Assembly (NCBI GenBank): GCA_963829055.1
Contig: CAWHHI010000016.1
Span: 960,001-1,024,000, forward strand
DNA from: an uncultured Gemmatimonadaceae bacterium
Lineage (GTDB): Bacteria; Gemmatimonadota; Gemmatimonadetes; Gemmatimonadales; Gemmatimonadaceae
Length of the DNA: 64,000 nt
Direction of reading: 5' to 3'
Positions 1 to 63,347 of this stretch are shown here, piece after piece. A program made the position numbers and the translations under genes. The notes beneath the pieces are model-generated. The model made no database searches, was not told where the DNA came from, and worked only from the letters and a program-made list of their open reading frames with translations. Position 1 is the first letter of the stretch. Each line of letters opens with the position of its first letter.

Positions 1-275
1 AACGGCGAAAACACTGGAAGGCCTAACGCGCCGGCGACCAGGTACAGCACCATGCTCGCTGCGCCGGCGACCGGCCCGAGCCACATGCCAGCAAGGACGA
101 CGACGAGCGGCTGCAGTGTGATGGGCACCGGCGTTCCCGGAATCGGCAACGCGACCTGCGACGCGAGCGCAAGCGCGATGGCGAAGCCGGCGATGCCGAT
201 TGCGGTGACGCTCGCGGGGCGCGTGACAGCGAGCGTACCGGCGCTCGTGCTGGTCCTGCCGGTGTTGCTCGTCAT
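1..275 (-). CDS. bioY: Biotin transporter BioY (partial, runs off window start)
   Basis: Manual translation from ATG at 275: MTSNTG...[33 protein letters not shown]...[12 protein letters not shown], the typical BioY PVPITLQ...GLPVF pattern. Start overlaps the thiolase stop (TGATG). Confidence 0.85.
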
Positions 276-1486
276 CAGTTCACGCGCTCCACGCTGAGGG
301 CCACCGCGTCTCCGCCGCCGAGGCAGAGCGTCGCCAGGCCACGTTCCTTGTCGCGATCCTCGAGAGCGTACAGCAACGTCGTGAGCACGCGCGCGCCGCT
401 CGCGCCGATCGGGTGGCCGAGCGCGATCGCGCCGCCGTTCACGTTCACGCGATCCCAATCCCATTCCAGCTGATCACCATCCGCCAGCGCCTGCGATGCG
501 AACGCCTCGTTCGCTTCGATCAGGTCGAAATCATTGATCGACAACCCGGACTTTGCCATCAGCTTGCGCACCGCGAGCACCGGCGCGAAGAACAGTTCCT
601 GCGGAGCGACGGCGCCGGTTCCGTAGCCCGTGACGCGCGCCATGATCGTTAGGCCGTGTGCGCGCGCATACTCCTCGCTCGTGACCACGAGCGCAGCGGC
701 GCCATCGTTGAGCCCCGGTGCATTTCCGGCGGTCACCGTGAGACCGTCCGTCGAGCCGGACTTCGGCGGGAACGCGGGTCGGAGCTTCGCGAGCGCCTCG
801 AGCGACGTGTCCTTTCGTGGTCCCTCGTCGGTGTCGACGGTCGTCGGTCCCTTTCGCCCCGGGATCTGCACGGGGACGATCTCGGCTTTGAACTTCCCTG
901 CCTCGATCGCGGCGACAGCCCGCTGGTGCGACGTGAGCGCGAACTGGTCCTGACGCTCACGCGTGATCTCGGCCTTCCGCGCCGTGTACTCGGCGTGCGA
1001 GCCCATGTGTACGTCGCAGAACGAACACCAGAGTCCGTCCTTGATCATACCATCGACGAGCGTCTGATCGCCCGCCTTCACGCCATTGCGCATGCCGTAC
1101 ATGTAGTACGGTGCGTTGGACATTGATTCCTGTCCGCCGGCGATGATGACGTCGAGGTCGCCGGCCTTGATCGCCTGCGAGGCAAGCATCACCGCCTGCA
1201 GTCCGGAACCGCAGACCTTGTTGATCGTTGTGGCCGAGACGGACGACGGAACGCCGGACTTGAGCGCGGCCTGGCGAGCGGGAGCCTGACCTACCCCGCC
1301 CTGAATGACGTTGCCCATGATGACTTCTTCAATGTCATCGATGTTCACGCCCGAGCGACGCACAGCCTCGCGGATGGCGATGGCGCCGAGCTCTGGCGCG
1401 GTGAGCGGCGAAAGACCGCCGAGAAATCGCCCAATGGGCGTGCGAGTCGCCGCGACGATGACCGGCGTGCGAGATGTATCAGCCAT
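275..1486 (-). CDS. Acetyl-CoA C-acetyltransferase (thiolase)
   Basis: NKVCGSG active-site Cys, [12 protein letters not shown] and CLGGG thiolase motifs. Confidence 0.95.
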
Positions 1487-1502
1487 GAAAGCGAGTCTCT
1501 AG

Positions 1503-1534
1503 AAAAAGGGGCTGACGCACGTGGCGTCAGCCCC
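1503..1534 (-). terminator. Intrinsic terminator-like hairpin downstream of the TonB-dependent receptor
   Basis: Minus strand reads GGGGCTGACGC-CACGT-GCGTCAGCCCC followed by CTTTTT. Confidence 0.7.
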
Positions 1535-1573
1535 AGAAAGCTATTGAGAAGGTCAAGCGTCTGGAATCGCTGT

Positions 1574-1602
1574 CGTCATTCCGAGCGAAGTCGAGGAACG
1601 AC
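1574..1602. repeat. CGTC-type REP-like element (half copy)
   Basis: CGTCATTCCGAGCGAAGTCGAGGAA; same family as 4421-4553 and 19737-19845. Confidence 0.6.
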
Positions 1603-1607
1603 AACCG

Positions 1608-4321
1608 TCAAAAGCCGTAGCTCACCTTCGCCCACAGGAAGCGCCCGTTGAACCCGAACGGCGAGATGCCGCTGTACGGGATTCATGCCGAAGTTCGCGT
1701 TGCCGGCGTAGTTCCGCGTGATATCGCCGTTGTCGCTCTGCACGTCGGGATAGATATCGAACACGTTATCCGCGCCCACGCTGAACGTCACGCGGTTGAG
1801 AACCTTGTACGACCCGCTCACGTCCGTCACCCACTTGGCCGAGAACGTCTGATCGGGCGGCTGGTTCGTGGCGGCGGCGATCTGACGGTTCGTCACCTCT
1901 CCGAATCGTTGCGTGCGGACGACGCCGCCAAAGACGCCCTTCGTGTAGTTCGCCGAGAGCAGCAGATTGTCGCGCGGTTGCGCTTCCTCGATGCGTCCAC
2001 GCTCCGCTCGGCCGAACAGCGCTTCGCCGAAACCGGAGAGCTCGGGCGGCGTCGGAATGACATCCGTGACGTTGGTCTTCGTGTGGTTGTAGCCGCCCGT
2101 GAGCCGCAGCACGCCGTTCCGACGGAAATCGATGCCATAGTTCGTGACGACATCGACGCCCTTCGTGCGCGTGTCGATCGCGTTCGTGAAGTAGCGCGCG
2201 CCCGCCACGTTGTTCAGCCCAATGGCCGCGAGTCGTGCCTGGATCGCCGCGCCGATGAAGTTCTCGGAGAAGACGATGCGGTCATTGATCCCGATGTCGT
2301 AGTAGTCGACGCTGACGGAGAATCGCGACGACGGATCGTAGGTCACTCCAGCGCTGTAGTTGGTCGACTTCTCCGGCTTGAGCGGCTTCGCGCCGAGTGC
2401 CTTCGCGCCATCGGTGCTGACCGGCAACGTGAGGATCTCGAGGAATTGCCCATTCACGAGGTTCGTCGCCGTGGACGAGAAGAACGATTGTCCAAGCGAA
2501 GGCGCTCGGAAGCCGCTGTTGAAGGCGCCGCGCACCGCGAGCTCCGGAGTGATGGCGAAACGTGCGGTCACCTTGGCTGTCGTCGTCGAGCCGAAGTCGT
2601 TGTAGTCCTCGAACCGGCCGGCGAGGCCGACCAACAGCCGCGACGTGACGTCACTCTCCAGGTCGACGTAGAGCGCGTAGTTGTTGCGCGTCGCATCCTG
2701 CTCGTCTGTCGGACGGAAACCCGGGAAGCCCTGCGCGCCCGGCGCGGGTAGTACCGTCGCACTGCCCGCGTTAGGTCCGTCGAGAATGCGCTGCCCGCCG
2801 TTGATCCACGACGCGTCGTCGCCCGCCTTGATCTGGTAATTGTCCCAACGGAACTCGGCGCCCGCCGCGGTGCGAATCGGCCGACCTTCGCCCAGGCTGA
2901 GCTGCTTGAAGAAATCGAGATTGGTCGTGGACTGCGCGAACACGAGGCCGCCGGCATCGAAATCCCGCGGGCTCGACGCGCCCATTGACGCGTTGTTGCT
3001 GTTCGCGACGTCGTAGTGCAGCGAGTTCCGCCCGAAGACCGAGCTCGCGTCCCATTGCCAGCCGCCGACCGTTCCCTTGGCGCCGATAGTGCCGGAGGCG
3101 TCCCAGATGTTCGTCTCGATCAGTGGCAGAAATCCATTCGGCCACAGCGCGCGCACCGTGTTGTTGCCGTTAGGCAGCCGCCAGTTCGCCGCCGACTCGC
3201 CATCGCGTCTGGCTCGCGCCGCCGAACGAGTACAGCTCGATGCCGCGCGCCGTCGTGTAGGAGCCGTTGAACATTCCCATCACGTCCTTCGTCGCCGCAT
3301 CGCCCAGACGAAGCGTCACGCGCTTCGGGTCATTGTTGCGCGGATCGCCGGCGAAGTACTGCTGACGCGGGTCGATGCCCGCGCGATTCGTGAAGCCGCG
3401 GTCCCGGTACTCGACGCCCGCGTGGAAGTAGTTCTGCTGGCCGAACACACTGCCGGCATTCGCCTGCAGGTGGGCAACCTCACCATCGTTCTCTGACGTA
3501 TGCCCCAGAGTCGCCGCCGCTTCGCCTGGCGTGCTTCCCTTCAACACGATGTTGATCACGCCAGCGATGGCATCCGAGCCGTACTGCGCCGCGGCGCCAT
3601 CGCGCAGGACCTCGATGCGCTCGATCATCGACGCCGGGATGGCGTTGAGGTCGACGCCGGTCGAGCCGCGACCGACCGTGCCGTTCACGTTGACGAGCGC
3701 GCTGTTGTGCCGACGCTTGCCGTTGACGAGCACCAGTACCTGGTCGGGCCCGAGGCCGCGCAGCGTCGCTGGCCTGACGTGATCCGAGCCGTCCGCGATG
3801 GACGGGCGCGGGAAGTTGAACGACGGCGCGAGCATCTGCAGGATCTGGTTCGTCTCGGTGCGGCCGGACGAGACAATGTCCGCCGACGTCAGCACGTCGA
3901 TGGGCACCGGCGACTCCGTGACCGTGCGCGCCTCGCCGCGCGTGCCGACGACCGCCAGCGCCTCGAGCGTGGTTGGCGAGCGCTCGAGCGCGAAGTCCTT
4001 CGTGACGGTCTGGCCGGCGGTGACGGTTACGCTGTCGTGCGTGCCGGTCCAGCCGATGAACCGCACGCGGAGCTCGTACCTGCCGGGCCGCAGCACGACG
4101 CGATACGTGCCGTCCGTCCGGCTCAGCGCGCCCGACTGCGTGCCGGTGACGAAGATCGTCGCGCCCGCAAGCGGTTGGACGCCATCAATGGCGGTGATCT
4201 TTCCCGCGACGACTCCCGACGCCTCCTGGGCGAGCGCCGGAGCGGGAGCTCCGAAAGCGAGCGCGCCTAACGAGCCGGCGAGCCCGAGAACGCGTGCGTG
4301 CAGACATTGGACGACATGCAT
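1608..4321 (-). CDS. TonB-dependent receptor with N-terminal carboxypeptidase-regulatory-like domain (frameshifted near 3208 and 1680)
   Basis: Plug motifs LRGLGPDQVLVLVNGKR and IERIEVLRDGAAAQYGSDAIAGVINIVL; barrel in the second ORF; corrected C-terminus GISPFGFNGRFLWAKVSYGF* ends in Phe. Confidence 0.9.
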
Positions 4322-4553: not shown

Positions 4554-5441
4554 TCACCCGCCCGCGAGCCAGTTTGTGGCGATCGGCCAGCCGTGTTCCG
4601 CAGCCGCCTCTCGAAAGAATCCGAAGTGTTCGACCTTGGCGAGGCCGAGCGAACGCGCGGTGATGTGGCGATGCTCCACACGAGCATTCGAGTAGAACGG
4701 GAGCAGCGCATCCACCGCTCGACGCGGCGCGAACGTGTGGTCGTCGTCGAAGCTCAACGCCAGGATCGGCCCGCGGTACTGCGCGAACCGTTGCGCGGCG
4801 TCGCCGCCGATGGCCGCGACGAGCGCGCCAGGCGATCTGCACCACGCGGCCCAGTCCAGCGCCACTCCCTTCGGCAGGTCCTCGCCGAGGCCGACCTTGC
4901 GGCTCGGGAAGTACCCGAGTGCGTGCGAAGTCGCAGGCATGATGAGCGTCCAGAGCGCGCACAACACCCAGCGTTCGCGGTGTCCCCACAACCCCCAGTA
5001 GTTGTGCTGCGCCGCGACCATCAGCACGCGGCTCACGGGACTCGGGTCTCGAAGCAATCCGAAGATCTGCCCACCGACGCTGTGGCCGACGAGCAGCAGT
5101 GGGACGTCCGGTTGCCAGGCGGCCGCATACGCTACCACCGCGGGCTGATCGACCTCGCCCCACTCGCGCATGGACGCGACGAACCCGCGCAGCGTGCGCG
5201 GACGCGATCCTCCGATCCCTCGATAGTCGTACGTGACGACGGCGAATCCGGAGGAGGCAAGGTGCAGCGCGAAGCTGTCGTAGTACCGCCGCCTGACGCC
5301 GGTCGCGGCGTTGATGATCACGACGCCGCTGGGCGCGCGCTCGGGAGCGTACGTCGTCGCGGCGATGGAGAACCCGTCGGCCGCGGTGATGCGAACGTCC
5401 CTGGACCGCGCCCACCGGTGCGGCACGCCTAACGTGTCCAT
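4554..5441 (-). CDS. Alpha/beta-fold hydrolase
   Basis: DYRGIGGS and GHSVGG nucleophile elbow; C-terminal HFGFF. Confidence 0.85.
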   Translation of the reverse strand: MDTLGVPHRWARSRDVRITAADGFSIAATTYAPERAPSGVVIINAATGVRRRYYDSFALHLASSGFAVVTYDYRGIGGSRPRTLRGFVASMREWGEVDQPAVVAYAAAWQPDVPLLLVGHSVGGQIFGLLRDPSPVSRVLMVAAQHNYWGLWGHRERWVLCALWTLIMPATSHALGYFPSRKVGLGEDLPKGVALDWAAWCRSPGALVAAIGGDAAQRFAQYRGPILALSFDDDHTFAPRRAVDALLPFYSNARVEHRHITARSLGLAKVEHFGFFREAAAEHGWPIATNWLAGG

Positions 5442-5495: not shown

Positions 5496-7436
5496 CTACG
5501 CCGTCCCCGCTTCGAGCTTGAGCGATCTGGATTTCACCTCCGCCAGCACCTTCGCGATGAATGCATCGACGGCCAGCGGAGCCGGCTTCTGCTCCTTCCC
5601 CGCCCCGCGCACGTTGATGGCGACCATGTCGCTCTCGGCCTCACGCTTTCCGATCACCGCGAGATACGGGACCTTCATGCGCACGCCTTCAGCGATCTTG
5701 TACTTGAGCGTCTCCGATCGCGTATCCGAATGCGCGCGGATGCCGGCGTCGCGCATGCGACGGGTCACCGCTTCGGCGACCGCCGCCTGGTCATCCGTGA
5801 TCGGCACCACGCGCACCTGCTCCGGCGACAGCCACGTCGGGAACGCACCAGCGAAGTGCTCGATGAGAATCGCCATGAAGCGCTCGAACGAGCCGCTCAC
5901 CGCGCGGTGGATGATCACCGGGCGATGCGCGGCATTGTCCTCGCCGACGTACGACAGATCGAACCGCTCGGGGTTCGCGTAGTCGAGCTGGATCGTCCCC
6001 AGCTGCCACGCCCGGCCTAACGAGTCGGTGACGTCGAAGTCGATCTTCGGTCCGTAGAACGCGCCATCACCGGCCTTGAGCTCGTACGGACGCCCCGTGG
6101 CATCGAGCGCCGCCTTGAGCGCGCCTTCGGCCTGATCCCACATCTCGTCGGTACCTACGCGGACCTCGGGACGCGTCGCGAACTTGAGCGTCGCCTCGAG
6201 GCCGAACGTGCGGTAGTAGCCGAGGATGAAGGACATGAGCTGGTGCACTTCCTCGGTGATCTGCCGTTCCATGAGGAAGATGTGGCAATCGTCCTGCTGG
6301 AACTGCCTGACGCGGGTGAGACCCGACAGCGCGCCGGACAGCTCGTTGCGATGCAGCACGTCGTACGTGTTGTACCGCAGCGGCAGCGTGCGGTACGAGT
6401 GCTTCTTCGACTGATACAACAGGTAATGCGACGGGCAATTCATCGGCTTGAGCGAGAAGTCGTGCTCCTTCGTCTCGTTGTCGAGCACGAGGAACATGTT
6501 CTCGCGGTACTTGCCCCAGTGCCCGGAGATCTCCCACAACGCCTTGTTGTACAGCAGCGGCGTCTTGACTTCGTGATAGCCGTCGCGCTGGAGCTCGCGC
6601 AGATAATCATTGATCGCATTGACCATGATCGTGCCGCGCTCCGTCCAGAACGCCGCGCCCGGCGCGTACTGATGGAACATGAACAGGTCGAGCTGCTTGC
6701 CGAGCACACGATGGTCGCGCCGCTTCGCCTCCTCGATGCGGAAGAGGTAGGCGTCGAGGTCCTCCTTCTTCCACCACGCGGTCGCGTAGATACGCTGGAG
6801 CTGCTGCCGCTTCACGTCGCCGCGCCAGTAGGCCGGCGAGGCGTGAAGAATCTTGAAATGCTTGAGGTACGACGTGTCCTGCACGTGCGGGCCACGGCAC
6901 AGATCGATGAACGGTCCATCGGTGTAGGTCGAGATCACCTCGTCCGGACCAAGGTCCTCGATGCGCTCGAGCTTGAGCGGATCATCGGCGAATCGCTTGA
7001 GCGACTCCTCGCGTGAGACCTCCTCGCGCACGAACGGATACTTCTCCGCCACGACCTTCCGCATCTCGGCCTCGAACGTTGCGAGGTCATCGGGCGTGAA
7101 TGGTTCGGGGACTTCGAAGTCGTAGTAGAAGCCGTCCTCGATCGCGGGGCCGAATCCGATCTTCGCATCGGGGCGCAGGCGACGGACGGCCGTCGCGAGA
7201 ATGTGCGCGGCCGAGTGGCGGAGCACGGCGAGCGATCGCGGATCCTTCTCCGTGATGACCGTGAACGCGCCGCCGCTCCGGATGGGCGTCATGAGGTCCT
7301 GCACGTTACCGTCGATGGAAACGGCGATCGCGTCGCGGAGGAGTCGCGACCCGATGGATGCGACGACGTCGCGGGCGAGGGTACCCGCTTCGACTTCGCG
7401 GGTGGCGCCATCGGGCAGTGTCAAAAGGATGGACAT
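5496..7436 (-). CDS. thrS: Threonine--tRNA ligase
   Basis: TGS domain, RHSAAH, DLCRGPH, KPMNCP, LTRVRQFQQD, GAFYGPKID, HRAVSGSFERF. Confidence 0.98.
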   Translation of the reverse strand: MSILLTLPDGATREVEAGTLARDVVASIGSRLLRDAIAVSIDGNVQDLMTPIRSGGAFTVITEKDPRSLAVLRHSAAHILATAVRRLRPDAKIGFGPAIEDGFYYDFEVPEPFTPDDLATFEAEMRKVVAEKYPFVREEVSREESLKRFADDPLKLERIEDLGPDEVISTYTDGPFIDLCRGPHVQDTSYLKHFKILHASPAYWRGDVKRQQLQRIYATAWWKKEDLDAYLFRIEEAKRRDHRVLGKQLDLFMFHQYAPGAAFWTERGTIMVNAINDYLRELQRDGYHEVKTPLLYNKALWEISGHWGKYRENMFLVLDNETKEHDFSLKPMNCPSHYLLYQSKKHSYRTLPLRYNTYDVLHRNELSGALSGLTRVRQFQQDDCHIFLMERQITEEVHQLMSFILGYYRTFGLEATLKFATRPEVRVGTDEMWDQAEGALKAALDATGRPYELKAGDGAFYGPKIDFDVTDSLGRAWQLGTIQLDYANPERFDLSYVGEDNAAHRPVIIHRAVSGSFERFMAILIEHFAGAFPTWLSPEQVRVVPITDDQAAVAEAVTRRMRDAGIRAHSDTRSETLKYKIAEGVRMKVPYLAVIGKREAESDMVAINVRGAGKEQKPAPLAVDAFIAKVLAEVKSRSLKLEAGTA

Positions 7437-8772: not shown

Positions 8773-11583
8773 ATGAGTTCGAACGTGCAGGCCAACACAC
8801 CGACGACTCCGCAGCCCGACTTTCCGCCACAGTTCGATTTCGCCTCGGTCGAGCGCGAGATCTATGACCGATGGCAGCGGGCCGGAGCGTTTTCCGCCAA
8901 CGTGTCGCACTCGGTGCGCATGGATGGCGATCGACAGCCGTTCACGATCGTGATGCCCCCGCCGAACGTCACGGCTGTGCTGCACATGGGGCACGGGCTC
9001 GATAACACGCTGCAGGATGTGCTCATCCGCTGGCGGCGCATGTCCGGCGATGAGGCGCTCTGGGTGCCGGGCACCGACCACGCCGGCATCGCGACGCAGA
9101 ACGTCGTCGAGAAGATGATCGCGAAGGAAGGGCTCACGCGGTACGACGTGGGTCGCGACGCGTTCGTGCGCCGTACCGTGCGCTTCGTGGACGAGACCGG
9201 CGGCGCGATCCTCGGCCAGCTCCGCGCGCTTGGCGCGTCATGCGATTGGTCGCGGGCGGCGTACACGCTGTCGCCAGAACTGTCGCGCGCGGTGCGCGAG
9301 GCGTTCGTGCGGCTGTACGAGAAGGGGCTCGTGTACCGTGGGCACCGCGTGATTCACTGGTGTCCGCGCTGCCTGACGTCGCTCAGCGATGAGGAAGCGG
9401 AGTTCCAGGACACGCCGGGGAAGCTGTATCACATCAGCTACCCGCTCGCGGGTGAGCCGGATCGATTCATCACCGTGGCCACGACGCGTCCCGAGACAAT
9501 GCTCGGGGACGTGGCCGTGGCCGTGAATCCCGACGACGATCGGTATCGCGATCTCATCGGTCGCACGGTGGTGCTGCCCATCGCGAACATCGAGATCCCG
9601 ATCATCCCGGACAGCTACACCGATCCGACGTTCGGGAGCGGCGCGGTGAAGATCACACCGGCACACGACGCGAATGATTTCGAAGTCGGTCAGCGTCACG
9701 AGCTCGCGATGCCGATCGTGATCACCGCGACCGGAACGATGGGCGAAGAACCGGGACGCGAAGGCGAGCACGGCGATCCGACGGAGCGTGTGCCCGCGGA
9801 GCTCCGCGGCCTCGACCGGTTCGAAGCGCGCGAAAAGATCGCGTCGATGCTCAAGGCCGCCGGTCGGCTCGTGAAGGTCGAGCCGCATCAGCATGCGGTG
9901 CGGCACTGTTACCGGTGCGACACCGTGGTCGAGCCGCGCCTGTCGGATCAGTGGTTCGTGAAGATGAAGCCGCTCGCGGAGCCAGCGCTCGCCGCCGTGC
10001 GCGACGGCCGCATCCGCGTGGTGCCCGAGCGCTGGGAAGGCGTCTACATCAACTGGCTCGAGACGATTCGCGACTGGAACATCTCGCGCCAGCTCTGGTG
10101 GGGCCATCGCATTCCCGTGTGGTACTGCGATGCCTGCGGCCGCGTGACGGTGAGCCGCCACGACGTCTCGAACTGCCCGTCGTGCGCCGGGCCAGTGCGC
10201 CAGGACGAGGACGTGCTCGACACCTGGTTCTCGTCCTGGCTGTGGCCGTTCTCGACGTTAGGCTGGCCGAAGGACACGCCGGATCTGCGCGCGTTCTATC
10301 CGACGGACGTGCTCGTGAGCGGCCCCGACATCATCTTCTTCTGGGTGTCGCGGATGATCATGGCCGGCTTCGAGTTCATGGGCGAGGCGCCGTACCATAC
10401 CGTGTACCTGCACGGCATTGCCCGCGACATGAAGCATCGCAAGATGTCCAAGTCGTTAGGTAACGGCATCGACCCGCTCGACGTGATCGCGCGGTTCGGC
10501 GCCGATCCGCTGCGTTACACGGTGGTGGCCGGCATGGGCCTCGGCGTCGATATCATCTTCGACCCCGACGACCTCGAGAAGTCGTTCGCGCCCGGCCGGA
10601 ACTTCGTGACGAAGCTGTGGAACATCGGCCGCTTCCTGCTGACCAACGTGGGTACAGCGCCGGTGCGAACGCTGGCCGAGATCGATCCGGAGCGGCTGAC
10701 GCGATCCGATGAATGGATTCTCGCGCGCCTCGACGCGGCCATTGCCGAGTGCGATGCCGCCCTCGGACCCGCGCGCCCGAACGGCGGCCACTGGACCGTT
10801 CCGGAGCGCACGGCCGGCCTGCGACTCAACGACTTCGCCGAGACGGCTCGGCGCTTCGTGTGGAACGAGCTCGCCGACTGGTATCTGGAAGCAGTGAAGG
10901 CGCGTCTCGCGGAGGGCGCGGAAAACCGAGACGATCGCGAGGTCGCGCGAGCCGTGCTCGTGCACGCGTTCGACGGCGCGTTGCGCCTGCTGCATCCGAT
11001 CGTGCCGTTCGTGACCGAGGCGCTCTGGCAGCGGCTGCCCGGCCGACACGATCACGAGCTGCTCATCACGGCGAGCTGGCCGAAGGCAACCGGCATCCAC
11101 GACGCCGCCGGAGCCGAATTCGAGTTTATCCGCGAGGCCGTCAGCGCGCTGCGGCAGCTGCGCGGCGAGTACAACATCACGCCCGGCAAGTTGCTGCCGG
11201 CGCTCATCGTGCCCTCGCCTAACGCGCGTGCCGCCATGCTCGCCGAGTCGACGCTCATCGGTCGCCTCGCGAGGTGCACGGTCTCGCTCGCGGACGCTGC
11301 CCCCGCCGGCGAGGCGGCGGCACATCAGGTCCTGGCCGACGGATCGGAGGTCATCCTGCCGCTTGCCGGCACCATCGACGTCGCGAAGGAGTGCGCGCGG
11401 CTCCAGCAGGAGTTGGCGTCGCTCGAGAAGCAGCTCGGCGCGCTCCGGCAGCGACTCGCGAACGACGCCTTCGTGTCGCGGGCCAAGCCCGAGATCGTCG
11501 AAGCCGAGCGGCAGAAGGAACGCGAGTGGTCGTCCCGAAGCGAACAACTATCGGCCAAGGTAAAAACATTGTGCGGAGGCTGA
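8773..11583 (+). CDS. valS: Valine--tRNA ligase
   Basis: PPPNVT..LHMGH, GTDHAGIATQ, DWNISRQLWWGH, KMSKS, C-terminal coiled-coil arm. Start chosen at ATG 8773. Confidence 0.97.
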   Translation: MSSNVQANTPTTPQPDFPPQFDFASVEREIYDRWQRAGAFSANVSHSVRMDGDRQPFTIVMPPPNVTAVLHMGHGLDNTLQDVLIRWRRMSGDEALWVPGTDHAGIATQNVVEKMIAKEGLTRYDVGRDAFVRRTVRFVDETGGAILGQLRALGASCDWSRAAYTLSPELSRAVREAFVRLYEKGLVYRGHRVIHWCPRCLTSLSDEEAEFQDTPGKLYHISYPLAGEPDRFITVATTRPETMLGDVAVAVNPDDDRYRDLIGRTVVLPIANIEIPIIPDSYTDPTFGSGAVKITPAHDANDFEVGQRHELAMPIVITATGTMGEEPGREGEHGDPTERVPAELRGLDRFEAREKIASMLKAAGRLVKVEPHQHAVRHCYRCDTVVEPRLSDQWFVKMKPLAEPALAAVRDGRIRVVPERWEGVYINWLETIRDWNISRQLWWGHRIPVWYCDACGRVTVSRHDVSNCPSCAGPVRQDEDVLDTWFSSWLWPFSTLGWPKDTPDLRAFYPTDVLVSGPDIIFFWVSRMIMAGFEFMGEAPYHTVYLHGIARDMKHRKMSKSLGNGIDPLDVIARFGADPLRYTVVAGMGLGVDIIFDPDDLEKSFAPGRNFVTKLWNIGRFLLTNVGTAPVRTLAEIDPERLTRSDEWILARLDAAIAECDAALGPARPNGGHWTVPERTAGLRLNDFAETARRFVWNELADWYLEAVKARLAEGAENRDDREVARAVLVHAFDGALRLLHPIVPFVTEALWQRLPGRHDHELLITASWPKATGIHDAAGAEFEFIREAVSALRQLRGEYNITPGKLLPALIVPSPNARAAMLAESTLIGRLARCTVSLADAAPAGEAAAHQVLADGSEVILPLAGTIDVAKECARLQQELASLEKQLGALRQRLANDAFVSRAKPEIVEAERQKEREWSSRSEQLSAKVKTLCGG

Positions 11584-19845: not shown

Positions 19846-19879
19846 ACTCCGATGCTGGGCCGGGTTGCGCCTCGTCCGC

Positions 19880-23465: not shown

Positions 23466-23628
23466 GCCGTGCACCGGTGGGCGAGTGTCGAGCGAACATG
23501 CGCCGGGCGGCATCAGCGCGCTAGACCGCCGGCGCTGCGCAGGTCCGCTCCGCCGGGTCGCGATCGAGGCGCAGCGGCCCACGGTTGCCTAACGCGATAT
23601 TGTCGTCGAAGCACGCGCGCGCTCCCGC

Positions 23629-26165: not shown

Positions 26166-26428
26166 GGCTGGCAGTCGGATGCACACACGTTAGGCGGTGC
26201 CGTGACCGGGAACGCCTGTGGACGCCGAACCAACGTCAACGCTCGCACGTCGATGCCGATTGCGGCATTGCACCTTGGGGCATCGCCGTGGGTGAGCGGC
26301 TCATGCGTGCGCACCCGCTCAACCGCTGGGGGCGACACGCCGTCTTCCCTGGGCGCTGATTTTTTGGTAGAGTTTCTGTCCCCCGTCGGCCGGCGCTCGC
26401 CCTCAGACCTCCTGTCTTCACCGTGAAG

Positions 26429-29304: not shown

Positions 29305-29338
29305 ACGACCCGCGAGACAGCGCTGTCTCGCGGGTCGT
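29305..29338. terminator. 34-bp perfect palindrome between convergent genes (bidirectional terminator candidate)
   Basis: ACGACCCGCGAGACAGC|GCTGTCTCGCGGGTCGT. Confidence 0.65.
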
Positions 29339-49933: not shown

Positions 49934-50425
49934 ATGAAATGCTCAGCTCGCCGGATACCGCTCGCTGCTGTCCTTCTCTCCATCGCCGCGTGCAGTCATC
50001 AAGCGACGCCGGACACATCGGTCACGCCGGTGCGCATGGTTGCGCCCGACTCGGTAGTGACGTGCAGTGACTGGGTCCGCCGTGCGGTCGCCGATCCGGA
50101 AATGGGCGTCGAGCAGGTGCCTGCGCCCGTCGCATTCAAGCCAGCGCCCATCCCGCGACCGATTCCGAAAGGCGTGCTCGGGAAGGACGGCAAGGCAGAA
50201 GTGCGAATTCGCGTTCTCGTCGACACGCTGGGCGCGGCGGACATGGCCACGTTCACGGTTATCAAGAGCACCAGTCCCACGTTGACAAAACTCGTCCGCA
50301 CGGCCGTCGCGAAGTGGACGTTCTCGCCCGCCCGGGTGAGCGGTTGCAAGGTGCCGCGCAACTTCAACTGGGCGGCCGTCTATCCCCCCGCGCAAGTCGG
50401 CGATGACAACAATGACGCACGTTAG
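49934..50425 (+). CDS. Lipoprotein with TonB C-terminal-like domain
   Basis: IAAC lipobox, Pro-rich segment, VRIRVLVDTLG...AVAKWTFSPA..SGCKV. Confidence 0.6.
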   Translation: MKCSARRIPLAAVLLSIAACSHQATPDTSVTPVRMVAPDSVVTCSDWVRRAVADPEMGVEQVPAPVAFKPAPIPRPIPKGVLGKDGKAEVRIRVLVDTLGAADMATFTVIKSTSPTLTKLVRTAVAKWTFSPARVSGCKVPRNFNWAAVYPPAQVGDDNNDAR

Positions 50426-54422: not shown

Positions 54423-56265
54423 TCAGCGCCGATTCGCGCAGCCCAGCGCGGTGTCGGCGAGGAACCGCTCGACTCGGCCTTCGAACTCCGTTCCCCGCGA
54501 TCCCGACCGAACCTGCAGCAGGAGGCGGCACGCGTCAGCGGGGCGATCCAGGATGAGATTCGTCTCGATCGCGTAGTACGTGGCCTCGACGCTGTCCTGG
54601 CGAGCGACCAGCCGGGGTAGCAGGCGGCGAATGTCCTGCAGGATCGCGTCACCATTGCCAGCCGCTCCAACGGCATCCGGATCGGCGAGCGCGCTCTTCA
54701 CGCGATCGAGGTCGGCACGGGCGCGCCTGTTCTCTTCGAGGGCCGCGCTCGGGCGTTCGACGACGACACTTGGCTCACTCGACGTCGGTGCCGCCCGTTG
54801 GCCAGTCGTATCGGGCCTGCTGTTCGGCGTGGTGCCGCTGCTCGGTTTGATCGAGCTGTCCACAGCGGGCGCGCGCGCGACGCCCTTCCCGGTTGGCCGC
54901 GGTCGCGACGACGGGGTCGCGGCGGGTGAGGCGGAATCGTTAGGCGCCGTCGTCGATGGAGCGACCGTCATGACAGCACCATCGGGCGGGTTTCGGCGCT
55001 GCCACGCGAGGACGCCAGCGGCCGCGAGCACCACCGCACCGGCGGCAATGCCCCCTCCGACCCAGGATTTGCGCCGCGGCGGCGCAAGGTCGGCGCTCGC
55101 GACGCCGGCTGGCGGGGTGACCGGACTGCGTGAATCGGCCGCGGGCGGGACACGTGCTGGGATCGCGCCCGCAGGCACGGGCGGCACCTCGACGGGTCGC
55201 GTGGACGCCATCGAACTGGCTGCCGTGGCCACCGCCTGTGACAGTGGTCCCGGCGCGTCACCCACGACGGCGAACGACCACGACGGCGTGGGGAGACCGA
55301 ACGCACGAAGGAGCGCTGCCGCAAACTCCATCGCTGAGGGTGTGCGATCGTCCGCGTCCATGGCCAGCGCATGATCGAGCGCCGCCTGAGCAGCGGCCGG
55401 CCATGCGATGTCGGGGCTCACCTGCTCCAGCGTCAGCGGTCTGTTGGTCAGGCGCTGCAGCGCCCACTGAATGCTGGACTCATCGTTAGGCGACGCGCTC
55501 GCGAATGGCATCCGCCCCGTGAGCATCTGGAATGCGATCATCCCCAAGGCGTAGATGTCGCTCCTGACGTCGACGACGCCGCCGGTCAGCTGCTCCGGAC
55601 TCATGTAGCGTGGCGTGCCTACGACGAGCCCCGGCGTCGTCAGCAGTTGGGTCTCTCGCTTGATCGGCCTTCGCGATCCCGAAGTCGACGACCTTCACCC
55701 AATCACTGCCGTCGCGCGTCGCCTTCAGCAGGATGTTGTCCGGCTTGAGGTCGCGGTGGACCACCGGCTCCGCGAGCTCGTGCGCCGCGGTGAGCCCGGC
55801 GGCGATCTGGCGAACGATCTCGACGGCGCGAACCGGTGGCACGAGCCTGTCCCGCTCGAGGCGGCGGCCGAGCGTTTCGCCCTCGATGAACTCCATTGCG
55901 AGGAACACCAGACCGTCGGACGTCTCGCCGAAATCGTAGACGGCGGCGACGTTCGGGTGATCGCCTACGCTGGCGGCGTTCCGCGCTTCGCGATTGAACG
56001 CGGCGACGGCGTAGGGATCCGCGATGAGCGCGCGCCGAAGGACCTTGATCGCCGCCTCACGCGGTACTCGGACGTGGCGCGCCCGGTAGACGCGCCCCAT
56101 CCCGCCTTCCCCGATGATCGCTTCGACGCGATAGCGGTCCGCTATGACGGTCCCGACGAGGTTGTCCGCCTCCGCGCCGGTCGACCGCAGCGGAGCGCCG
56201 TCGGCCGCGCAGAAATAATCGTCGTCACCGTAGGTGAGCTCGCAGCTCGGACAGACCTTGGCCAT
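54423..56265 (-). CDS. Hanks-type Ser/Thr protein kinase with N-terminal Zn-ribbon, TM and extracytoplasmic tail (frameshift near 55665)
   Basis: [50 protein letters not shown]. Confidence 0.92.
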
Positions 56266-59129: not shown

Positions 59130-59727
59130 ATGAAGGTCATCCTTGGACTGGGCAATCCCGGGCAACGAATACGAGCACACGCGTCACAACGTCGGCTGGT
59201 GGGTTCGTCGACCACCTCGCCGACGTTTGGCGTTTCGACGGCTGGCGGACGGACGGCGAGACGCGCTGTCGCGAGCGGGCACGTTCGCGAATCAGGCGGT
59301 GCGGCTCGTGAAGCCGCTGACGTACATGAACCTGAGCGGGCAGGCGCTGCGTCCGTACCTGCGTCGTCCGTTCTGGTCGGCGGCGACGGATCTGATGGTC
59401 GTCGTCGACGAGGTGGCGATCCCGCTCGGTACGTATCGCTTTCGCGCCCACGGGAGCGCCGGCGGCCACAACGGCCTCAAGGAGCATCGAGCGCACGTTA
59501 GGCACGCAGGAGTACCCGCGGCTGCGCATCGGCATCGCCGCCGGACGATCCGCGCGCGTCGGCGACCTCGCGGACTTCGTGCTCGTCGCCATTCTCGAGC
59601 GACGAGAGGCCGGTCGTCCTGCGAGCTGCTGCCACGGCTCCAGGACGCGCTCGAGATCTGGCTGCGCGACGGCATCATCCAGGCGATGAACATCCACAAC
59701 GGCGACGGCAAGGCGAAGCCGGCGTAG
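59130..59727 (+). CDS. pth: Peptidyl-tRNA hydrolase (several frameshifts)
   Basis: [38 protein letters not shown]. Confidence 0.93.
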
Positions 59728-62039: not shown

Positions 62040-62256
62040 CTACCTGTGCGGCCACGGCTCGCGAAGGCGGAAACACTCGCCAGGCTGCCGAAATTGGCGC
62101 GTGGCGGCTTCCATCCCTTCCGGCGGCTCTGGGCCTCGGAGCGCCGCCATTTGCCCGCCCAAGACGTCGCCGCGGCCGGCGGCTGGCGGTCGCTCGAGGT
62201 GATGCGGCACGCATATCAGCACGCCGATGCCGCGGGTATGATGTCAGTCGTGGAAT
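62040..62256 (+). pseudogene. Tyrosine recombinase/integrase C-terminal remnant
   Basis: LAKAE..ARLPKL.RGGFHPFRR.WASERRHLP..DVAAAGGW...MRHAYQH: H-x-x-R box, W and catalytic Tyr; no recognisable N-terminal part. Confidence 0.7.
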
Positions 62257-62396
62257 CGCCGCGAACGGCGCCCGATCCCGAATCGTCGGTCGTCGAGCCG
62301 GACAAGGTAGCTCAGCGAGGGCTGGCATTGAAGTGCACTGTATGCGAGACGGCACCGAGCCAGAGACCTAACGCCGGGGAAACACGCAGCATCGGC

Positions 62397-62492
62397 ATGG
62401 AAATCGGGTCGACAGGAGTCTGCATCGCGCTGGGCATCGCGTTCATGCTTGTGGGCGTCTACTTCCTCGCAGTGGCGCCGCTGGATTACTAA
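62397..62492 (+). CDS. Putative 31-aa membrane peptide
   Basis: MEIGSTGVCIALGIAFMLVGVYFLAVAPLDY*. Confidence 0.35.
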   Translation: MEIGSTGVCIALGIAFMLVGVYFLAVAPLDY

Positions 62493-62583
62493 CGCGTTAG
62501 GCAATCGCCTCACGTTCGCTTCAACGTTTGACGGTTGGCGATACTCGGGGCAGGACACGAACCGGCTCGCGCCTCCCGCCAAC

Positions 62584-62850
62584 GTCCATGCTGGCCCGCT
62601 CGCACGTCCCAGATCGAGCTCGGTCGCCAACTGGGCGCTTGCACTGATCGGCGTCGCCGGCTTCTGGAGCACGTGGTCGTTCTGGGCAGCGACCGTTCTC
62701 GCGTTCTCGACGTTCTACTGGGGCTGCGCTCTCCTGCACTGGCGCGGCTCCTGCGTTCGGCCAACACCGCCCCGGACGCGCGGGTTCATGCTCTGGTGGG
62801 ACACCCTCTTTCCGCCCGCGTTGCTGGGGCTTCTCTGGTTGTCGCGGTGA
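62584..62850 (+). CDS. Small Trp-rich membrane protein, start uncertain
   Basis: VANWALALIGVAGFWSTWSFWAATVLAFSTFYWGCALLHW...WWDTLFPPALLGLLWLSR*. Confidence 0.35.
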   Translation, partial: VHAGPLARPRSSSVANWALALIGVAGFWSTWSFWAATVLAFSTFYWGCALLHWRGSCVRPTPPRTRGFMLWWDTLFPPALLGLLWLSR

Positions 62851-63042
62851 GGTTGGCCCCAGACGCTGGGAAGTCCGGAGATCTGCCACAATCCGCACTG
62901 CGCCTAACGGATCTCGCGCGATTCCGGGTGCTCCTCGCGCGAGAGCTCCGCGGCACCACATCGCTGCTGGTACTTGCGCGGGAGGCGCGTCCGGCACATG
63001 TGGACCGCGACACGGATCCAACCGAGTCACGAATGACGGCCA

Positions 63043-63347
63043 GTGGCTGACCACAGCGAGATCGCGCGCATTGAAGCGGCGGAGCGCGACCTGATCGCCG
63101 CGCCTAACGCCGTGGCGGCAGGACTAGCCGACGCAATCCGCGATCTGCTTGCGCGGATCGAGCAGGCCACGCCGGGAGGTGCCCCCCTGCACGCCCAGCT
63201 CGACGCGACCCGCAAGTGGCTCGCCGTACTCGAGCGGCCCGCTGACCACGACCGGTTCGGTGGATCGGCGCATATCCGCGACTACTGGTCACCCAGCTTC
63301 GCCTCACGCGCGGCGCCGTCGAGGACTACGCCCGCGAAATGCCGTAA
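63043..63347 (+). CDS. Small helical hypothetical protein (frameshift near 63285)
   Basis: MADHSEIARIEAAE...HIRDY, then VTQLRLTRGAVEDYAREMP* in the shifted frame. Confidence 0.5.

What the first reader, a model, noticed from the sequence alone, without database searches (positions are those of the whole stretch)
21..63109. Highly iterated non-palindromic octamer GCCTAACG/CGTTAGGC embedded in genes across the whole window
Seen: by manual count GCCTAACG occurs 23 times on + (21, 4265, 5427, 6015, 11217, 12061, 16017, 16806, 19878, 21578, 23587, 25128, 27206, 32847, 34973, 35599, 36215, 48136, 48991, 51376, 53220, 62902, 63102). Its reverse complement CGTTAGGC occurs 20 times (647, 3168, 10256, 12916, 15508, 18689, 19658, 20287, 26188, 27671, 29336, 31730, 46347, 50420, 53667, 54378, 54938, 55484, 59496, 62495). 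Ten more sites carry only the 7-mer core (2769, 10454, 23081, 23298, 24287, 29361, 36806, 39006, 39369, 62366). At an estimated 68% GC, about 2-3 octamers are expected in 64 kb on both strands, so enrichment is roughly 15-20x. Most copies lie inside CDSs, including thrS, valS, gltX and purH, and in different frames: TTA-GGC (Leu-Gly), CTA-ACG (Leu-Thr), CCT-AAC (Pro-Asn), GTT-AGG (Val-Arg), or as a stop codon. These use codons that are normally rare at this GC. Inference: the motif is maintained at the DNA level, not by protein sequence. Lack of strand bias argues against polar Chi/KOPS signals and fits a DNA uptake sequence, a HIP1-like iterated motif, a nucleoid-protein site or an asymmetric methylation-linked site. 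I know of no description of this motif. It also matches the integron core consensus GTTRRRY.
Basis: partly seen in the sequence, partly recalled or inferred. Interest (0 to 1): 0.88.

Follow-up and report, generated by a model that had tools for sequence, protein, structure and literature searches.

The report
Hyper-abundant uptake-like DNA word, Gemmatimonadota
A soil bacterium and about a third of its family have written the 8-letter DNA word GCCTAACG thousands of times into genes and spacers by point mutation, against normal codon choice, much as Neisseria and Haemophilus mark their own DNA for uptake, but what reads the word is untested.

Summary
GCCTAACG occurs 43 times in the window (23+/20-) against 1.15 expected, and 5004 times in the 7.78 Mb genome (1 per 1.56 kb). 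It is by far the most over-represented 8-mer.

- **Not coding pressure:** enrichment survives a within-gene synonymous shuffle (3210 observed vs 153).
- **Not an artefact:** the stretch recurs in contigs of four independent studies.
- **How copies arise and persist:** by point substitution (e.g. Leu CTC to TTA). They are kept at orthologous sites in 39-70% of cases against 18-20% for any 8-mer.
- **Layout:** both orientations, all open frames and spacers, with few close pairs and no replication polarity.
- **Spread:** about 100 of 301 family genomes carry hundreds to thousands of copies; the rest carry 4-60. None of 137 sampled genomes outside the order is enriched.
- **Beyond the family:** a phage contig carries 1.8 copies per kb. 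A Chthoniobacterales (Verrucomicrobiota) metagenome contig carries the 9-mer GCCTAACGA at 1.1 per kb.

My best reading (about 0.5) is a DNA-uptake-sequence-like word spread by molecular drive. Uptake was not tested and no reader was found. No paper describing it turned up. This scan had already noted the same word on other genomes (e1-7736792, e1-7737463) and TCGTTAGGC in Verrucomicrobia (e1-3987626).

The parts
21..28 (+). GCCTAACG copy; antisense in gene (-), read as TTA-GGC (Leu-Gly)
   Evidence: context; not kept in G001, G005
647..654 (-). copy in thiolase gene 278-1486(-), CTA-ACG (Leu-Thr)
   Evidence: kept in G001, G002, not G005
3168..3175 (-). copy in frameshifted TonB-dependent receptor; true frame reads CCT-AAC (Pro-Asn)
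   Evidence: kept in G001, G002; G005 has CGTTCGGC
4265..4272 (+). copy in TonB receptor N-terminal part (-), TTA-GGC
5427..5434 (+). copy in hydrolase gene 4557-5441(-), TTA-GGC
6015..6022 (+). copy in thrS (-), TTA-GGC
   Evidence: kept in G001, G002; one-letter variants in G003-G005
10256..10263 (-). copy in valS (+), TTA-GGC; unique to this genome: genus mates read CTC/CTG-GGC
11217..11224 (+). copy in valS (+), CCT-AAC (Pro-Asn)
   Evidence: kept in 5 of 5 genus mates
12061..12068 (+). copy in Big_5 gene 11526-12965(+), CTA-ACG
   Evidence: kept in G001, G005
12916..12923 (-). copy in gene 11526-12965(+), TTA-GGC
15508..15515 (-). copy in purN-like gene 14931-15629(+), TTA-GGC
   Evidence: kept in G001, G005
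16017..16024 (+). copy in purH (+), CCT-AAC
   Evidence: kept in G001, G005
16806..16813 (+). copy in purH (+), CCT-AAC
   Evidence: kept in G001, G002, G005
18689..18696 (-). copy in gene 18321-19595(+), GTT-AGG (Val-Arg)
   Evidence: kept in G002, G005
19658..19665 (-). intergenic copy
   Evidence: kept in G001, G002, G005
19878..19885 (+). copy supplying the TAG stop of gene 19883-20602(-)
   Evidence: kept in G003
20287..20294 (-). copy in gene 19883-20602(-), CCT-AAC
   Evidence: kept in 5 of 5
21578..21585 (+). copy in peptidase M28 gene (-), GTT-AGG
   Evidence: kept in 4 of 5
23587..23594 (+). intergenic copy
25128..25135 (+). copy in L,D-transpeptidase gene (-), TTA-GGC
   Evidence: ACCTAACG in G003, G004
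26188..26195 (-). intergenic copy just upstream of gene 24450-26186(-)
27206..27213 (+). copy in gltX (+), CTA-ACG; genus mates read GCCTCACG or GGCTCTCG
27671..27678 (-). copy in gltX (+), TTA-GGC
   Evidence: kept in 5 of 5
29336..29343 (-). intergenic copy downstream of lexA
   Evidence: kept in G005 only
31730..31737 (-). copy in DinG-like helicase gene (-), CCT-AAC
   Evidence: kept in 4 of 5
32847..32854 (+). copy in helicase gene (-), TTA-GGC
   Evidence: kept in 4 of 4 aligned
34973..34980 (+). copy in gene 33678-34997(-), GTT-AGG
   Evidence: in none of 4 aligned
35599..35606 (+). copy in TPR gene 34997-36694(-), GTT-AGG
   Evidence: in none of 3 aligned
36215..36222 (+). copy in TPR gene (-), TTA-GGC
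   Evidence: kept in 3 of 3 aligned
46347..46354 (-). intergenic copy; first after a 10.1 kb copy-free stretch (36223-46346)
48136..48143 (+). copy in gene 47843-48781(+), CCT-AAC
   Evidence: kept in 5 of 5
48991..48998 (+). copy in gene 48906-49934(+), CTA-ACG
   Evidence: kept in 5 of 5
50420..50427 (-). copy at overlap of two genes: TAG stop of 50030-50422(+), GTT-AGG in 50403-52151(+)
51376..51383 (+). copy in gene 50403-52151(+), CTA-ACG; region without orthologue-grade match in 5 genus mates
53220..53227 (+). copy in gene 53141-54394(+), CTA-ACG; genome-specific region
53667..53674 (-). copy in gene 53141-54394(+), TTA-GGC; genome-specific region
54378..54385 (-). copy in gene 53141-54394(+), TTA-GGC; genome-specific region
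54938..54945 (-). intergenic copy; genome-specific region
55484..55491 (-). copy supplying the TAA stop of gene 55489-56265(-)
59496..59503 (-). copy in weakly predicted gene 59143-59724(+), GTT-AGG
   Evidence: kept in 5 of 5
62495..62502 (-). intergenic copy
62902..62909 (+). intergenic copy
63102..63109 (+). intergenic copy

Best explanation
GCCTAACG (functional core CCTAAC, purine preferred at both ends) is a DNA-uptake-sequence-like word. I infer that some part of the DNA-uptake or transformation route of these Gemmatimonadales prefers fragments that carry it. Fragments with the word would then be taken up and recombined more often. Any mutation that creates a copy would spread through the population, and any mutation that destroys one would tend to be replaced. 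This is molecular drive, as modelled for Haemophilus USS and Neisseria DUS.

Shown here: the word's statistics, its origin by point substitution, its maintenance at orthologous sites, its all-or-little spread among species, and its presence in a phage.

Inferred, not shown: that uptake is the step that reads the word, that these bacteria are competent at all, and what the receptor is.
For: 1. Density and layout match USS/DUS. There is 1 copy per 1.56 kb here and up to 1 per 0.78 kb in relatives. Orientations are equal (2457/2547). Copies lie in spacers and in every frame that has no stop, evenly along genes. There is no conserved flank, so it is not a mobile repeat.
2. It is written by substitution into aligned, conserved genes without length change, often by 2-3 changes to rare codons. 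Examples are valS 10256, CTC to TTA, and the g59 sites.
3. It is maintained. Copies kept in genus mates at about 79% DNA identity: 16/25, 16/23, 15/23, 9/20 and 9/23, against 18-20% for any 8-mer. There is also turnover: 6-16 sites are present only in the relative. In genus g59 word-rich sisters keep 8/11 and 6/7 sites.
4. Close pairs are fewer than random: 215 spacings under 200 bp against 612 expected. This fits a model where one copy per fragment suffices.
5. The mismatch spectrum is graded. ACCTAACG is 12.5x, GCCTAACA 11.9x and GCATAACG 4.3x enriched, while changes at positions 2 and 7 are rare. Bakkali reports a comparable gradual drive for DUES by similarity to the word (PMC1939737, abstract read).
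6. The uptake hardware is encoded: pilMNOPQ with pilins, ComEC, secretin and ComEA-type HHH_3 proteins.
7. A tailed-phage contig carries 29 copies in 16.07 kb. Its prophage relative in a word-poor host has 0 in 35 kb. Temperate Pasteurellaceae phages likewise accumulate their hosts' USS (PMC6776037, passages read).
8. A genome-specific 6.8 kb region (50.4-57.2 kb) still holds 7 copies.
Against: - No uptake or transformation experiment exists. My searches found no paper joining Gemmatimonadota with uptake sequences or competence.
- ComEC, secretin, HHH_3 proteins and the minor-pilin-like gene are present in word-rich and word-poor genomes alike (40/41, 40/41, 41/41 and 37/41). Nothing found here explains the on/off pattern. 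In G000 itself the ComEA-type match is weak (35 bits in an 81-aa frame).
- No dialects. The same 8 letters are used across dozens of genera and three families, and word-poor genomes show no substitute word. Neisseriaceae DUS differ between genera (PMC3630211; search listing only).
- The same word, extended by one letter, is hyper-abundant in a Chthoniobacterales contig. For an arbitrary receptor specificity this is unexpected. It suggests a conserved or transferred reader that need not be an uptake protein.
- Close inverted pairs are rare: 13 within 60 bp among 4984 neighbour pairs. By my recollection Neisseria DUS often form such terminator-like pairs.
- Conservation at orthologous sites is equally what the HIP1 authors took as evidence for selection for a cellular function (PMC5861425 abstract).
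Confidence: 0.5

Rival explanations
1. The word is read inside the cell. It would be a binding or recognition site of a conserved DNA-processing or nucleoid protein, either HIP1-like chromosome organisation or a Chi-like 'self' mark that tames a nuclease. Each copy would be kept by weak selection.
For: - Orthologous conservation is 2-3.5 times background. This is the same argument used for HIP1 (PMC5861425 abstract).
- The identical word occurs in three families of the order and, as a 9-mer, in a Verrucomicrobiota contig. That fits a conserved reader.
- A phage carries it at 1.8 per kb, including in portal and terminase genes. I recall that phages are known to mimic host Chi; the paper PMC3784561 was seen only in a search listing.
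Against: - There is no replication polarity. On contig C16, which has a GC-skew switch near 550 kb, forward/reverse counts are 126/167 on the left and 194/178 on the right. Neighbouring copies share orientation 2589 times and differ 2395 times. Known Chi and KOPS words are skewed (recalled).
- RecC was not found in 40 of 41 genomes. AddAB was not searched.
- Selection on about 5000 separate sites, with sister species doing without any (g59: 4-66 copies), is hard to sustain.
- The word is not palindromic, unlike HIP1.
- The 10-90 kb periodicity reported for HIP1 was not tested here.
Confidence: 0.25
2. A biased repair or modification-linked process inside the cell (VSP-like, or tied to an asymmetric methyltransferase) converts near-matches into the word. 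It would also act on any phage that resides in the cell.
For: - It would explain substitution towards the word, the on/off pattern (gain or loss of one gene) and the word-rich phage.
- Some one-letter variants are rarer than the shuffle null (positions 2 and 7, and GCTTAACG, at 0.05-0.27), as substrates of such a repair might be. That null is inflated by the word's own rare codons.
Against: - Vsr occurs in only 4 of 41 genomes, all word-poor.
- PF01555, PF02384 and PF00145 give no match in G000, which is 86% complete. The only D12-type gene is frameshifted. The Eco57I-like gene is universal in the order (39/41).
- Many sites were 2-3 changes away from the word. A single-mismatch repair bias does not bridge that easily.
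- By my recollection, known VSP effects are far weaker than 20-100x.
Confidence: 0.1
3. The word is a recombination site related to integrons. Seven of its letters equal the attI1/attC core GTTAGGC, and it would be read by integron integrases or a kindred tyrosine recombinase.
For: - The attI1 wild-type primer in PMC2811028 contains GCCTAAC (passage read).
- Integron integrases are common in the order: 24 of 41 genomes score over the TIGR02249 cut-off, including G000 at 265.7 bits against a cut-off of 265.
Against: - Integrase presence does not follow the word. Word-poor G007, G008, G009, G011, G016 and others have strong integrases. Word-rich G014, G010, G002, G004 and G020 have none over the cut-off.
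- Copies arise by substitution in place, not by cassette insertion.
- attC-like close inverted pairs are rare.
Confidence: 0.04
4. Artefact, or a by-product of codon or amino-acid usage.
For: G000 has assembly indel errors.
Against: - The synonymous shuffle gives 153 against 3210 observed.
- The word occurs in spacers.
- It appears in about 100 separately assembled genomes.
- Contigs of four runs from four studies match the stretch at about 99%. None of the 40 listed differences lies in the 16 copies of window 1-20000; 421 further differences were not shown.
Confidence: 0.01

Closest known systems
Uptake signal sequences of Pasteurellaceae (USS) and DNA uptake sequences of Neisseriaceae (DUS)
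   Same: A short non-palindromic word at about one per kb, in both orientations. It lies in genes and spacers and is made by point mutation. One-letter variants are graded. The word is lineage-restricted. Temperate phages of the hosts also accumulate it (PMC6776037; PMC1939737).
   Different: No uptake bias or competence has been shown. The word is 8 letters with no extended flank. There are no dialects across dozens of genera, only presence or near-absence. Inverted terminator-like pairs are few. The host phylum is Gemmatimonadota, not Proteobacteria. A 9-letter form occurs in a Verrucomicrobiota contig. No ComP-like receptor was identified.
HIP1 (GCGATCGC) of cyanobacteria
   Same: A hyper-abundant octamer, 15-300x over-represented, conserved within and between genes, with patchy exceptions among lineages and no known function (PMC5861425 abstract; PMC4390886, abstract start in the search listing).
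   Different: HIP1 is a palindrome and is linked to two orphan methyltransferases. This word is asymmetric, and no matching methyltransferase pattern was found. The periodicity reported for HIP1 was not tested here.
Chi and KOPS/AIMS octamers
   Same: An asymmetric, over-represented 8-mer.
   Different: Those words are co-oriented with replication and far less dense (recalled). This word shows no such polarity, and RecC was not found in 40 of 41 genomes.
Integron core site GTTRRRY / attI1 GTTAGGC
   Same: Seven of the eight letters are identical.
   Different: The word does not lie within attC hairpins. It does not correlate with integrase genes. It arises by substitution inside conserved genes.

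Membership tests
DNA uptake sequences (USS/DUS) | Short word hugely over-represented genome-wide, about 1 per kb, both orientations | tested here: met
   5004 copies in 7.78 Mb, 2457/2547; top 8-mer; 21x over the synonymous shuffle
DNA uptake sequences (USS/DUS) | Competent cells preferentially take up DNA that carries the word | not testable with these tools
   Needs an uptake or transformation assay; no paper found
DNA uptake sequences (USS/DUS) | Type IV pilus and DNA translocation genes present | tested here: met
   pilMNOPQ and pilins, ComEC, secretin, HHH_3. All are equally present in word-poor relatives, so this is permissive only. The HHH_3 match in G000 is weak.
DNA uptake sequences (USS/DUS) | A dedicated receptor (ComP in Neisseria) | tested here: inconclusive
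   The minor-pilin-like gene C12:400497-401414 has homologues in 37/41 relatives regardless of the word; no discriminating gene found
DNA uptake sequences (USS/DUS) | Related lineages use dialects of the word | tested here: not met
   The same 8 letters are used throughout the order. Word-poor genomes sampled (G008, G009, G017, G022, G128, G283) have no substitute word. The only variant seen is the 9-mer in Chthoniobacterales.
DNA uptake sequences (USS/DUS) | Graded over-representation of mismatched forms (molecular drive) | tested here: met
   End-position purine variants are 12x, the position-3 C>A variant 4x, core variants at or below the null. The null is imperfect.
DNA uptake sequences (USS/DUS) | Temperate phages of the hosts accumulate the word | tested here: met
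   One phage contig has 29 copies in 16.07 kb; its relative in a word-poor host has 0 in 35 kb. Only one word-rich phage was found, and its host is inferred.
Chi / KOPS (polar octamers) | Strong co-orientation with replication | tested here: not met
   C16 arms 126/167 and 194/178; neighbours same/different 2589/2395. Tested on contigs, not on a closed chromosome.
Chi / KOPS (polar octamers) | Cognate RecBCD enzyme present | tested here: not met
   RecC PF04257 found in 1 of 41 genomes; AddAB/AdnAB not searched
HIP1-like iterated palindromes | Palindromic word | tested here: not met
   GCCTAACG is not its own reverse complement
HIP1-like iterated palindromes | Conservation of sites within and between genes | tested here: met
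   39-70% kept against 18-20% for any 8-mer
HIP1-like iterated palindromes | Cognate orphan methyltransferases | tested here: not met
   PF01555, PF02384 and PF00145 absent from G000 (86% complete); D12 gene frameshifted; Eco57I-like gene universal
HIP1-like iterated palindromes | 10-90 kb periodicity along the chromosome | not tested
   No closed chromosome was available to the script machine
Integron attC/attI sites | Core GTTRRRY paired with inverse core in an imperfect hairpin of about 60-140 bp | tested here: not met
   Spacings under 200 bp number 215 of 4984, fewer than random; 13 inverted pairs within 60 bp
Integron attC/attI sites | Presence follows an integron integrase | tested here: not met
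   24 of 41 genomes over the cut-off, word-rich and word-poor alike

The most novel reading that the evidence does not exclude
The word is a DNA-uptake 'password' shared across phyla. It would be the first uptake sequence outside the Proteobacteria. It would also be a gate that channels gene flow between unrelated soil bacteria, and it would switch on and off between sister species.
Probability: 0.2. Interest if true: 0.95.

Novelty: new variant of a known kind. Interest (0 to 1): 0.8.

Why it matters
Sequence-specific DNA uptake is known from only two proteobacterial families. Why it evolves, whether by drive or for benefit, is still argued. Here the same kind of genomic signature appears in a large, mostly uncultured soil phylum.

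Three features make it useful. First, there is a natural on/off contrast between sister species: 3200-4100 copies against 4-66 within one genus. Second, the same word occurs in a second phylum. Third, it occurs in a phage. Together these make the question testable by comparative genomics, looking for the gene that tracks the word, and by simple uptake assays in cultured relatives.

There is also a practical use. The word is a sharp taxonomic watermark. In this assembly it flags about 128 kb of housekeeping DNA that lacks it and probably belongs to another organism. It could also link phages to hosts.

Tried and rejected
- **Polarity scare.** In one search the first listed places of G230:C1 and G069:C2 were all on one strand. 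The fetched DNA shows mixed orientations, so the listing was simply truncated.
- **One-strand clusters in word-poor genomes** (G027:C95 and others). In the 20 kb I sampled, many other 8-mers are co-enriched. This is a repetitive stretch, not the phenomenon.
- **Dialect search.** 40-60 kb samples of six word-poor genomes gave no substitute octamer. The samples are small.
- **Candidate readers by presence or absence.** ComEC, secretin, HHH_3, the minor-pilin-like protein, the Eco57I-like protein, integron integrase, RecC and Vsr were tried. None follows the word.
- **Motif-made stop in a TonB receptor** (3168). Rejected: a 1-base indel in this assembly causes the apparent split.
- **Prophage search** with the HK97 capsid family in five word-rich genomes found nothing. 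Portal and terminase relatives of the phage in the viral collection numbered 0 and 4, all word-poor.
- **Large copy-free stretches as genomic islands.** Rejected for the three largest, which hold housekeeping genes.
- **Atlas taxonomy of the 9-mer contig** was ambiguous for one of two proteins. It was settled by named NCBI homologues.
- **Reads.** One search used contigs only, so it says nothing on modification or on rare variants.

Full report
**Observation.** One hundred dinucleotide-preserving shuffles give a mean of 1.15 (largest 4). The ten extra seven-letter sites are real: all read CCTAACG without the leading G, and eight read ACCTAACG. One more GCCTAAC-only site lies at 20737. Window GC is 66.7%. 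Pfam confirms thrS, valS, gltX, purH and other housekeeping genes.

By my own gene calls, 31 copies lie inside genes, 3 overlap gene ends and 9 are intergenic. The in-gene frames are TTA-GGC 13, CCT-AAC 6, CTA-ACG 6 and GTT-AGG 6. Two of the three gene-end copies supply a TAA or TAG stop. The third, at 3168, follows an indel error, and its true frame reads Pro-Asn.

**Genome-wide statistics.** The window is G000:C16:960001-1024000, in a 7.78 Mb, 20-contig, 66.5% GC assembly that is 86% complete. The word occurs 5004 times, 2457 forward and 2547 reverse, or one per 1.56 kb. Density is 0.48-0.80 per kb on every contig. It is the top 8-mer under an order-3 Markov model (5004 vs 257, z 296), and the next-ranked words are its own overlaps. 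Flanking positions carry almost no information. The unit is therefore exactly eight letters and not part of a mobile repeat.

No gene finder was available, so I wrote a crude codon-usage caller. It gives 6976 genes and 74% coding. The assembly also has indel errors, so the intergenic share is overestimated. With these% of copies are intergenic, 8% straddle gene ends and the rest sit in the four stop-free frames, evenly along genes.

A within-gene shuffle of synonymous codons gives 153 copies against 3210 observed (ten shuffles, largest 128+59). 46% of all TTA codons and 16% of all CTA codons lie in the word. 417 of 6963 predicted genes end in a stop codon supplied by the word.

**Layout.**
- Neighbouring copies share orientation 2589 times and differ 2395 times.
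- On contig C16, which has a GC-skew and gene-strand switch near 550 kb, forward/reverse counts are 126/167 on one side and 194/178 on the other. This is far from the skew I recall for Chi or KOPS.
- Spacings under 200 bp number 215 against 612 expected from an exponential.
- Inverted pairs within 60 bp number 13.

**Mismatch spectrum.** Measured against the codon-shuffle null, ACCTAACG is 12.5x and GCCTAACA 11.9x enriched, GCATAACG 4.3x and GCCTGACG 2.4x. All changes at positions 2 and 7, and GCTTAACG, are at 0.05-0.27 of the null. That null is inflated by the word's own rare codons, so I read 'depleted' only as 'not enriched'. The functional core looks like CCTAAC with a purine preferred at each end.

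**Not an artefact.** Fourteen DNA runs from at least ten studies of soil, rhizosphere and freshwater sediment hold half or more of the valS stretch. I laid contigs of four runs from four studies on window 1-20000. They match in pieces of up to 2.2 kb with about 1% differences. None of the 40 listed differences falls in the 16 copies there, although 421 further differences were not shown. The same laying shows 1-base deletions relative to the window at 16819 and 17042 in all four runs, and at 3211 in one. G000 therefore carries indel errors. One of them splits a TonB-dependent receptor that I first mistook for a word-made stop.

**How copies arise and persist.** I compared the whole window with five other species of the genus at 78-79% DNA identity.

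| Genus mate | Copies kept | Any-8-mer control | Copies only in the relative |
|---|---|---|---|
| G001 | 16 of 25 | 19% | 13 |
| G002 | 16 of 23 | 18% | 16 |
| G005 | 15 of 23 | 20% | 11 |
| G003 | 9 of 20 | 18% | 7 |
| G004 | 9 of 23 | 18% | 6 |

All alignments are gap-free at these sites, so copies come and go by substitution. At valS 10256 the four... five genus mates read CTC or CTG followed by GG, where G000 has TTA-GGC.

**A natural experiment in genus g59.** The query was G070:C2:1-20000. Word-rich G202 and G170, 82-84% identical to G070, keep 8 of 11 and 6 of 7 copies. The any-8-mer control is 27-31%. Word-poor G128, G283 and G305, 73-77% identical, have the word at 0 of 6 sites each. 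There they read ordinary GC-rich codons two or three changes away.

**Who has it.** Record titles of thrS relatives place the genome in Gemmatimonadota, Gemmatimonadales, near Gemmatimonadaceae.
- In the family sample of 301 genomes, by my manual count, 100 carry 200 or more copies. The maximum is 7821 in 6.1 Mb, and one genus holds 4100-6400. Most others carry 4-60.
- Whole genera are rich: g1 7/7, g9 7/7, g65 8/8, g72 8/8, g79 7/7, g83 5/5.
- Genus g59 is split, with five species at 3244-4141 copies and three at 4, 8 and 66.
- In the phylum sample of 401 genomes, enrichment is confined to the order. It appears in family f1, in some f3 genera, and in f2 in one genus (g111, 181-1061 copies) plus one genome. 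None of the 137 genomes of families f4-f12 exceeds about 70 copies.
- Word-poor relatives hold far fewer copies than the reversed-word control (for example 38 vs 430). Against sister genera the enrichment in G000 is therefore roughly 100-fold.
- In 30-80 kb samples the word is the top 8-mer in G014, G010, G021, G069, G230, G209, G070 and G061. Six word-poor genomes show no substitute word.
- These tallies include unpublished genomes: G013, G055, G056, G154, G268, G286, G313, G355, G382 and G451. G056 is one of the 100 rich genomes. No conclusion rests on them.

**Search for a reader.** Nothing I tested follows the word.

| Candidate | Result |
|---|---|
| ComEC | 40 of 41 relatives |
| Secretin | 40 of 41 |
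| ComEA-type HHH_3 | 41 of 41 (weak in G000) |
| Minor-pilin-like gene beside pilMNOPQ | 37 of 41 |
| Eco57I-family gene, about 1070 aa | 39 of 41 |
| Integron integrase over cut-off | 24 of 41, rich and poor alike |
| RecC | 1 of 41 |
| Vsr | 4 of 41, all word-poor |

G000 has no match to the three largest DNA methyltransferase families and only a frameshifted D12-type gene. This weakens the methylation, VSP-repair, RecBCD-Chi and integron readings. It also gives the uptake reading no receptor.

**Phage.** One scan of viral contigs for two copies 100-129 bp apart returned 80 loci with flanks. Most were background or tandem arrays. One contig stood out: IMGVR_UViG_3300049057_000028, 16,975 bp and 61% GC. 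It has 29 copies in 16.07 kb, and the word is its top 8-mer (z 20.8). It encodes small and large terminase, portal, scaffold and major head protein. Copies lie inside the portal and terminase genes and at several gene junctions of the form stop-TAA-CG-ATG.

Four terminase relatives in the collection have 0-2 copies. A portal relative at 44% identity sits in the family genome G052, which is word-poor (37 copies). The 35 kb fetched around it has no copy. That hit places this phage family on Gemmatimonadaceae hosts, but the host of the word-rich contig is inferred only. The pattern matches what Szafranski et al. report for Pasteurellaceae. There, temperate phages accumulate the host's USS and its dialect, while large lytic phages do not (PMC6776037, passages read).

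**A second phylum.** Many 54-61% GC contigs carry several copies, and almost all of these are in the 9-mer form GCCTAACGA. Their proteins are only 30-50% identical to G000's.

The best example is L373, from a 99.8 kb contig. It has 22 copies in 20 kb, 21 of them as the 9-mer, in both orientations. Its acetyl-CoA synthetase is 85-89% identical to NCBI proteins named Chthoniobacterales or Spartobacteria bacterium; every listed hit that carried an organism name had one of those names. One Atlas look-up agreed and one was uninformative.

**Interpretation.** The anatomy is that of an uptake sequence: about one per kb, both orientations, any frame and spacers. Copies are made by substitution and restored or kept at orthologous sites. 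Variants are graded, close pairs are under-represented, the uptake hardware is encoded, and a host-tracking phage carries the word. I commit to a USS/DUS-like word spread by molecular drive, at about 0.5.

Several things keep it from being higher:
- There is no experiment.
- No gene explains the on/off pattern.
- There are no dialects across an entire order.
- The same letters appear in a second phylum.

Each of these fits a conserved intracellular reader (HIP1-like or Chi-like, about 0.25) as well or better. A conserved uptake component combined with variable competence would also explain them. A repair or modification drive (about 0.1) and an integron-type site (about 0.04) are weakened.

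**Literature.**
- Full-text searches for either orientation of the word returned only primers and the like among the listed hits: 20 of 280 and 20 of 223 listed.
- 'DNA uptake sequence' together with 'Gemmatimonad' returned 0 papers.
- Searches joining the phylum with competence or 'octamer' gave nothing relevant.
- Subscription journals are not covered.
- Papers read: PMC5861425 and PMC1939737 (abstracts), PMC6776037 (passages), PMC2811028 and PMC12614218 (primer-table passages), PMC9238386 (two passages, not informative).
- PMC3630211, PMC3458573, PMC3784561 and PMC4390886 were seen only as search listings.
- This scan had already noted the word on two other Gemmatimonadota genomes (e1-7736792, e1-7737463).

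Noticed in passing
G000 contigs C6:5440-55037, C11:1-46789, C6:591808-623330 (outside the window): The three longest stretches without the word (49.6, 46.8 and 31.5 kb) are not islands. They hold housekeeping genes: chorismate synthase in two pieces, def, fmt, trp genes, DAHP synthase, ftsK, greA, glnA, ilvD and folD. Chorismate synthase occurs again at C12 next to the pilus locus. These are probably mis-binned or chimeric DNA of another organism; the bin's estimated contamination is 3.95%.
   Followed up: partly
window 3211, 16819, 17042 (also 19027, 19590, 19732): Independent metagenome contigs lack one base at these places, at 16819 and 17042 in all four runs. The assembly therefore has indel errors that split genes: the TonB-dependent receptor at 1579-4321, and elsewhere topA, def, aroC and the Eco57I-like gene.
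   Followed up: partly
window 4420-4477: A short dispersed repeat containing GTCATTCCGAGCGAG twice, with about 195 BLAST hits in G000 and many in all five genus mates. It accounts for the other enriched 8-mers (CTCGGAAT, GGAATGAC).
   Followed up: partly
window 17222-17340: An inverted repeat built of tandem heptamers, (CAGCCAT)n facing (ATGGCTG)n, between purH and the next gene. There are 61 partial hits in G000 and many in genus mates.
   Followed up: no
G000:C8:73751-77791 and orthologues (L141-L143): A single-copy gene of about 1000-1130 aa with an Eco57I-type methyltransferase domain. It is conserved in 39 of 41 genomes of the order, which is unusual for a restriction-modification-type gene. 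It is frameshifted in G000.
   Followed up: partly
relatives: Integron integrases scoring over the TIGR02249 cut-off occur in 24 of 41 Gemmatimonadales genomes, some with two copies. Integrons seem common in this order.
   Followed up: no
window 36223-46346: A 10.1 kb stretch without the word, although at least its first 3.7 kb aligns with genus mates. It includes a 1228-aa gene without Pfam match (36681-40364) in a region of strong AT skew (-0.235).
   Followed up: no
window 50400-57200: No orthologue-grade match in five genus mates, yet the region holds 7 copies of the word in 6.8 kb.
   Followed up: partly
L347 (IMGVR_UViG_3300049057_000028): In the word-rich phage several copies sit at gene junctions as ...GCC-TAA-CG-ATG..., joining the stop of one gene to the start of the next. 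18 of 24 copies in the region right of the terminase share the genes' direction.
   Followed up: partly
G027:C95:1-24000, also G025:C3, G029:C113, G588:C2: In word-poor family-f2 genomes the few copies cluster on one strand about every 550 bp. In the sampled 20 kb of G027:C95 many other 8-mers are co-enriched, so the copies lie in a repetitive stretch.
   Followed up: partly
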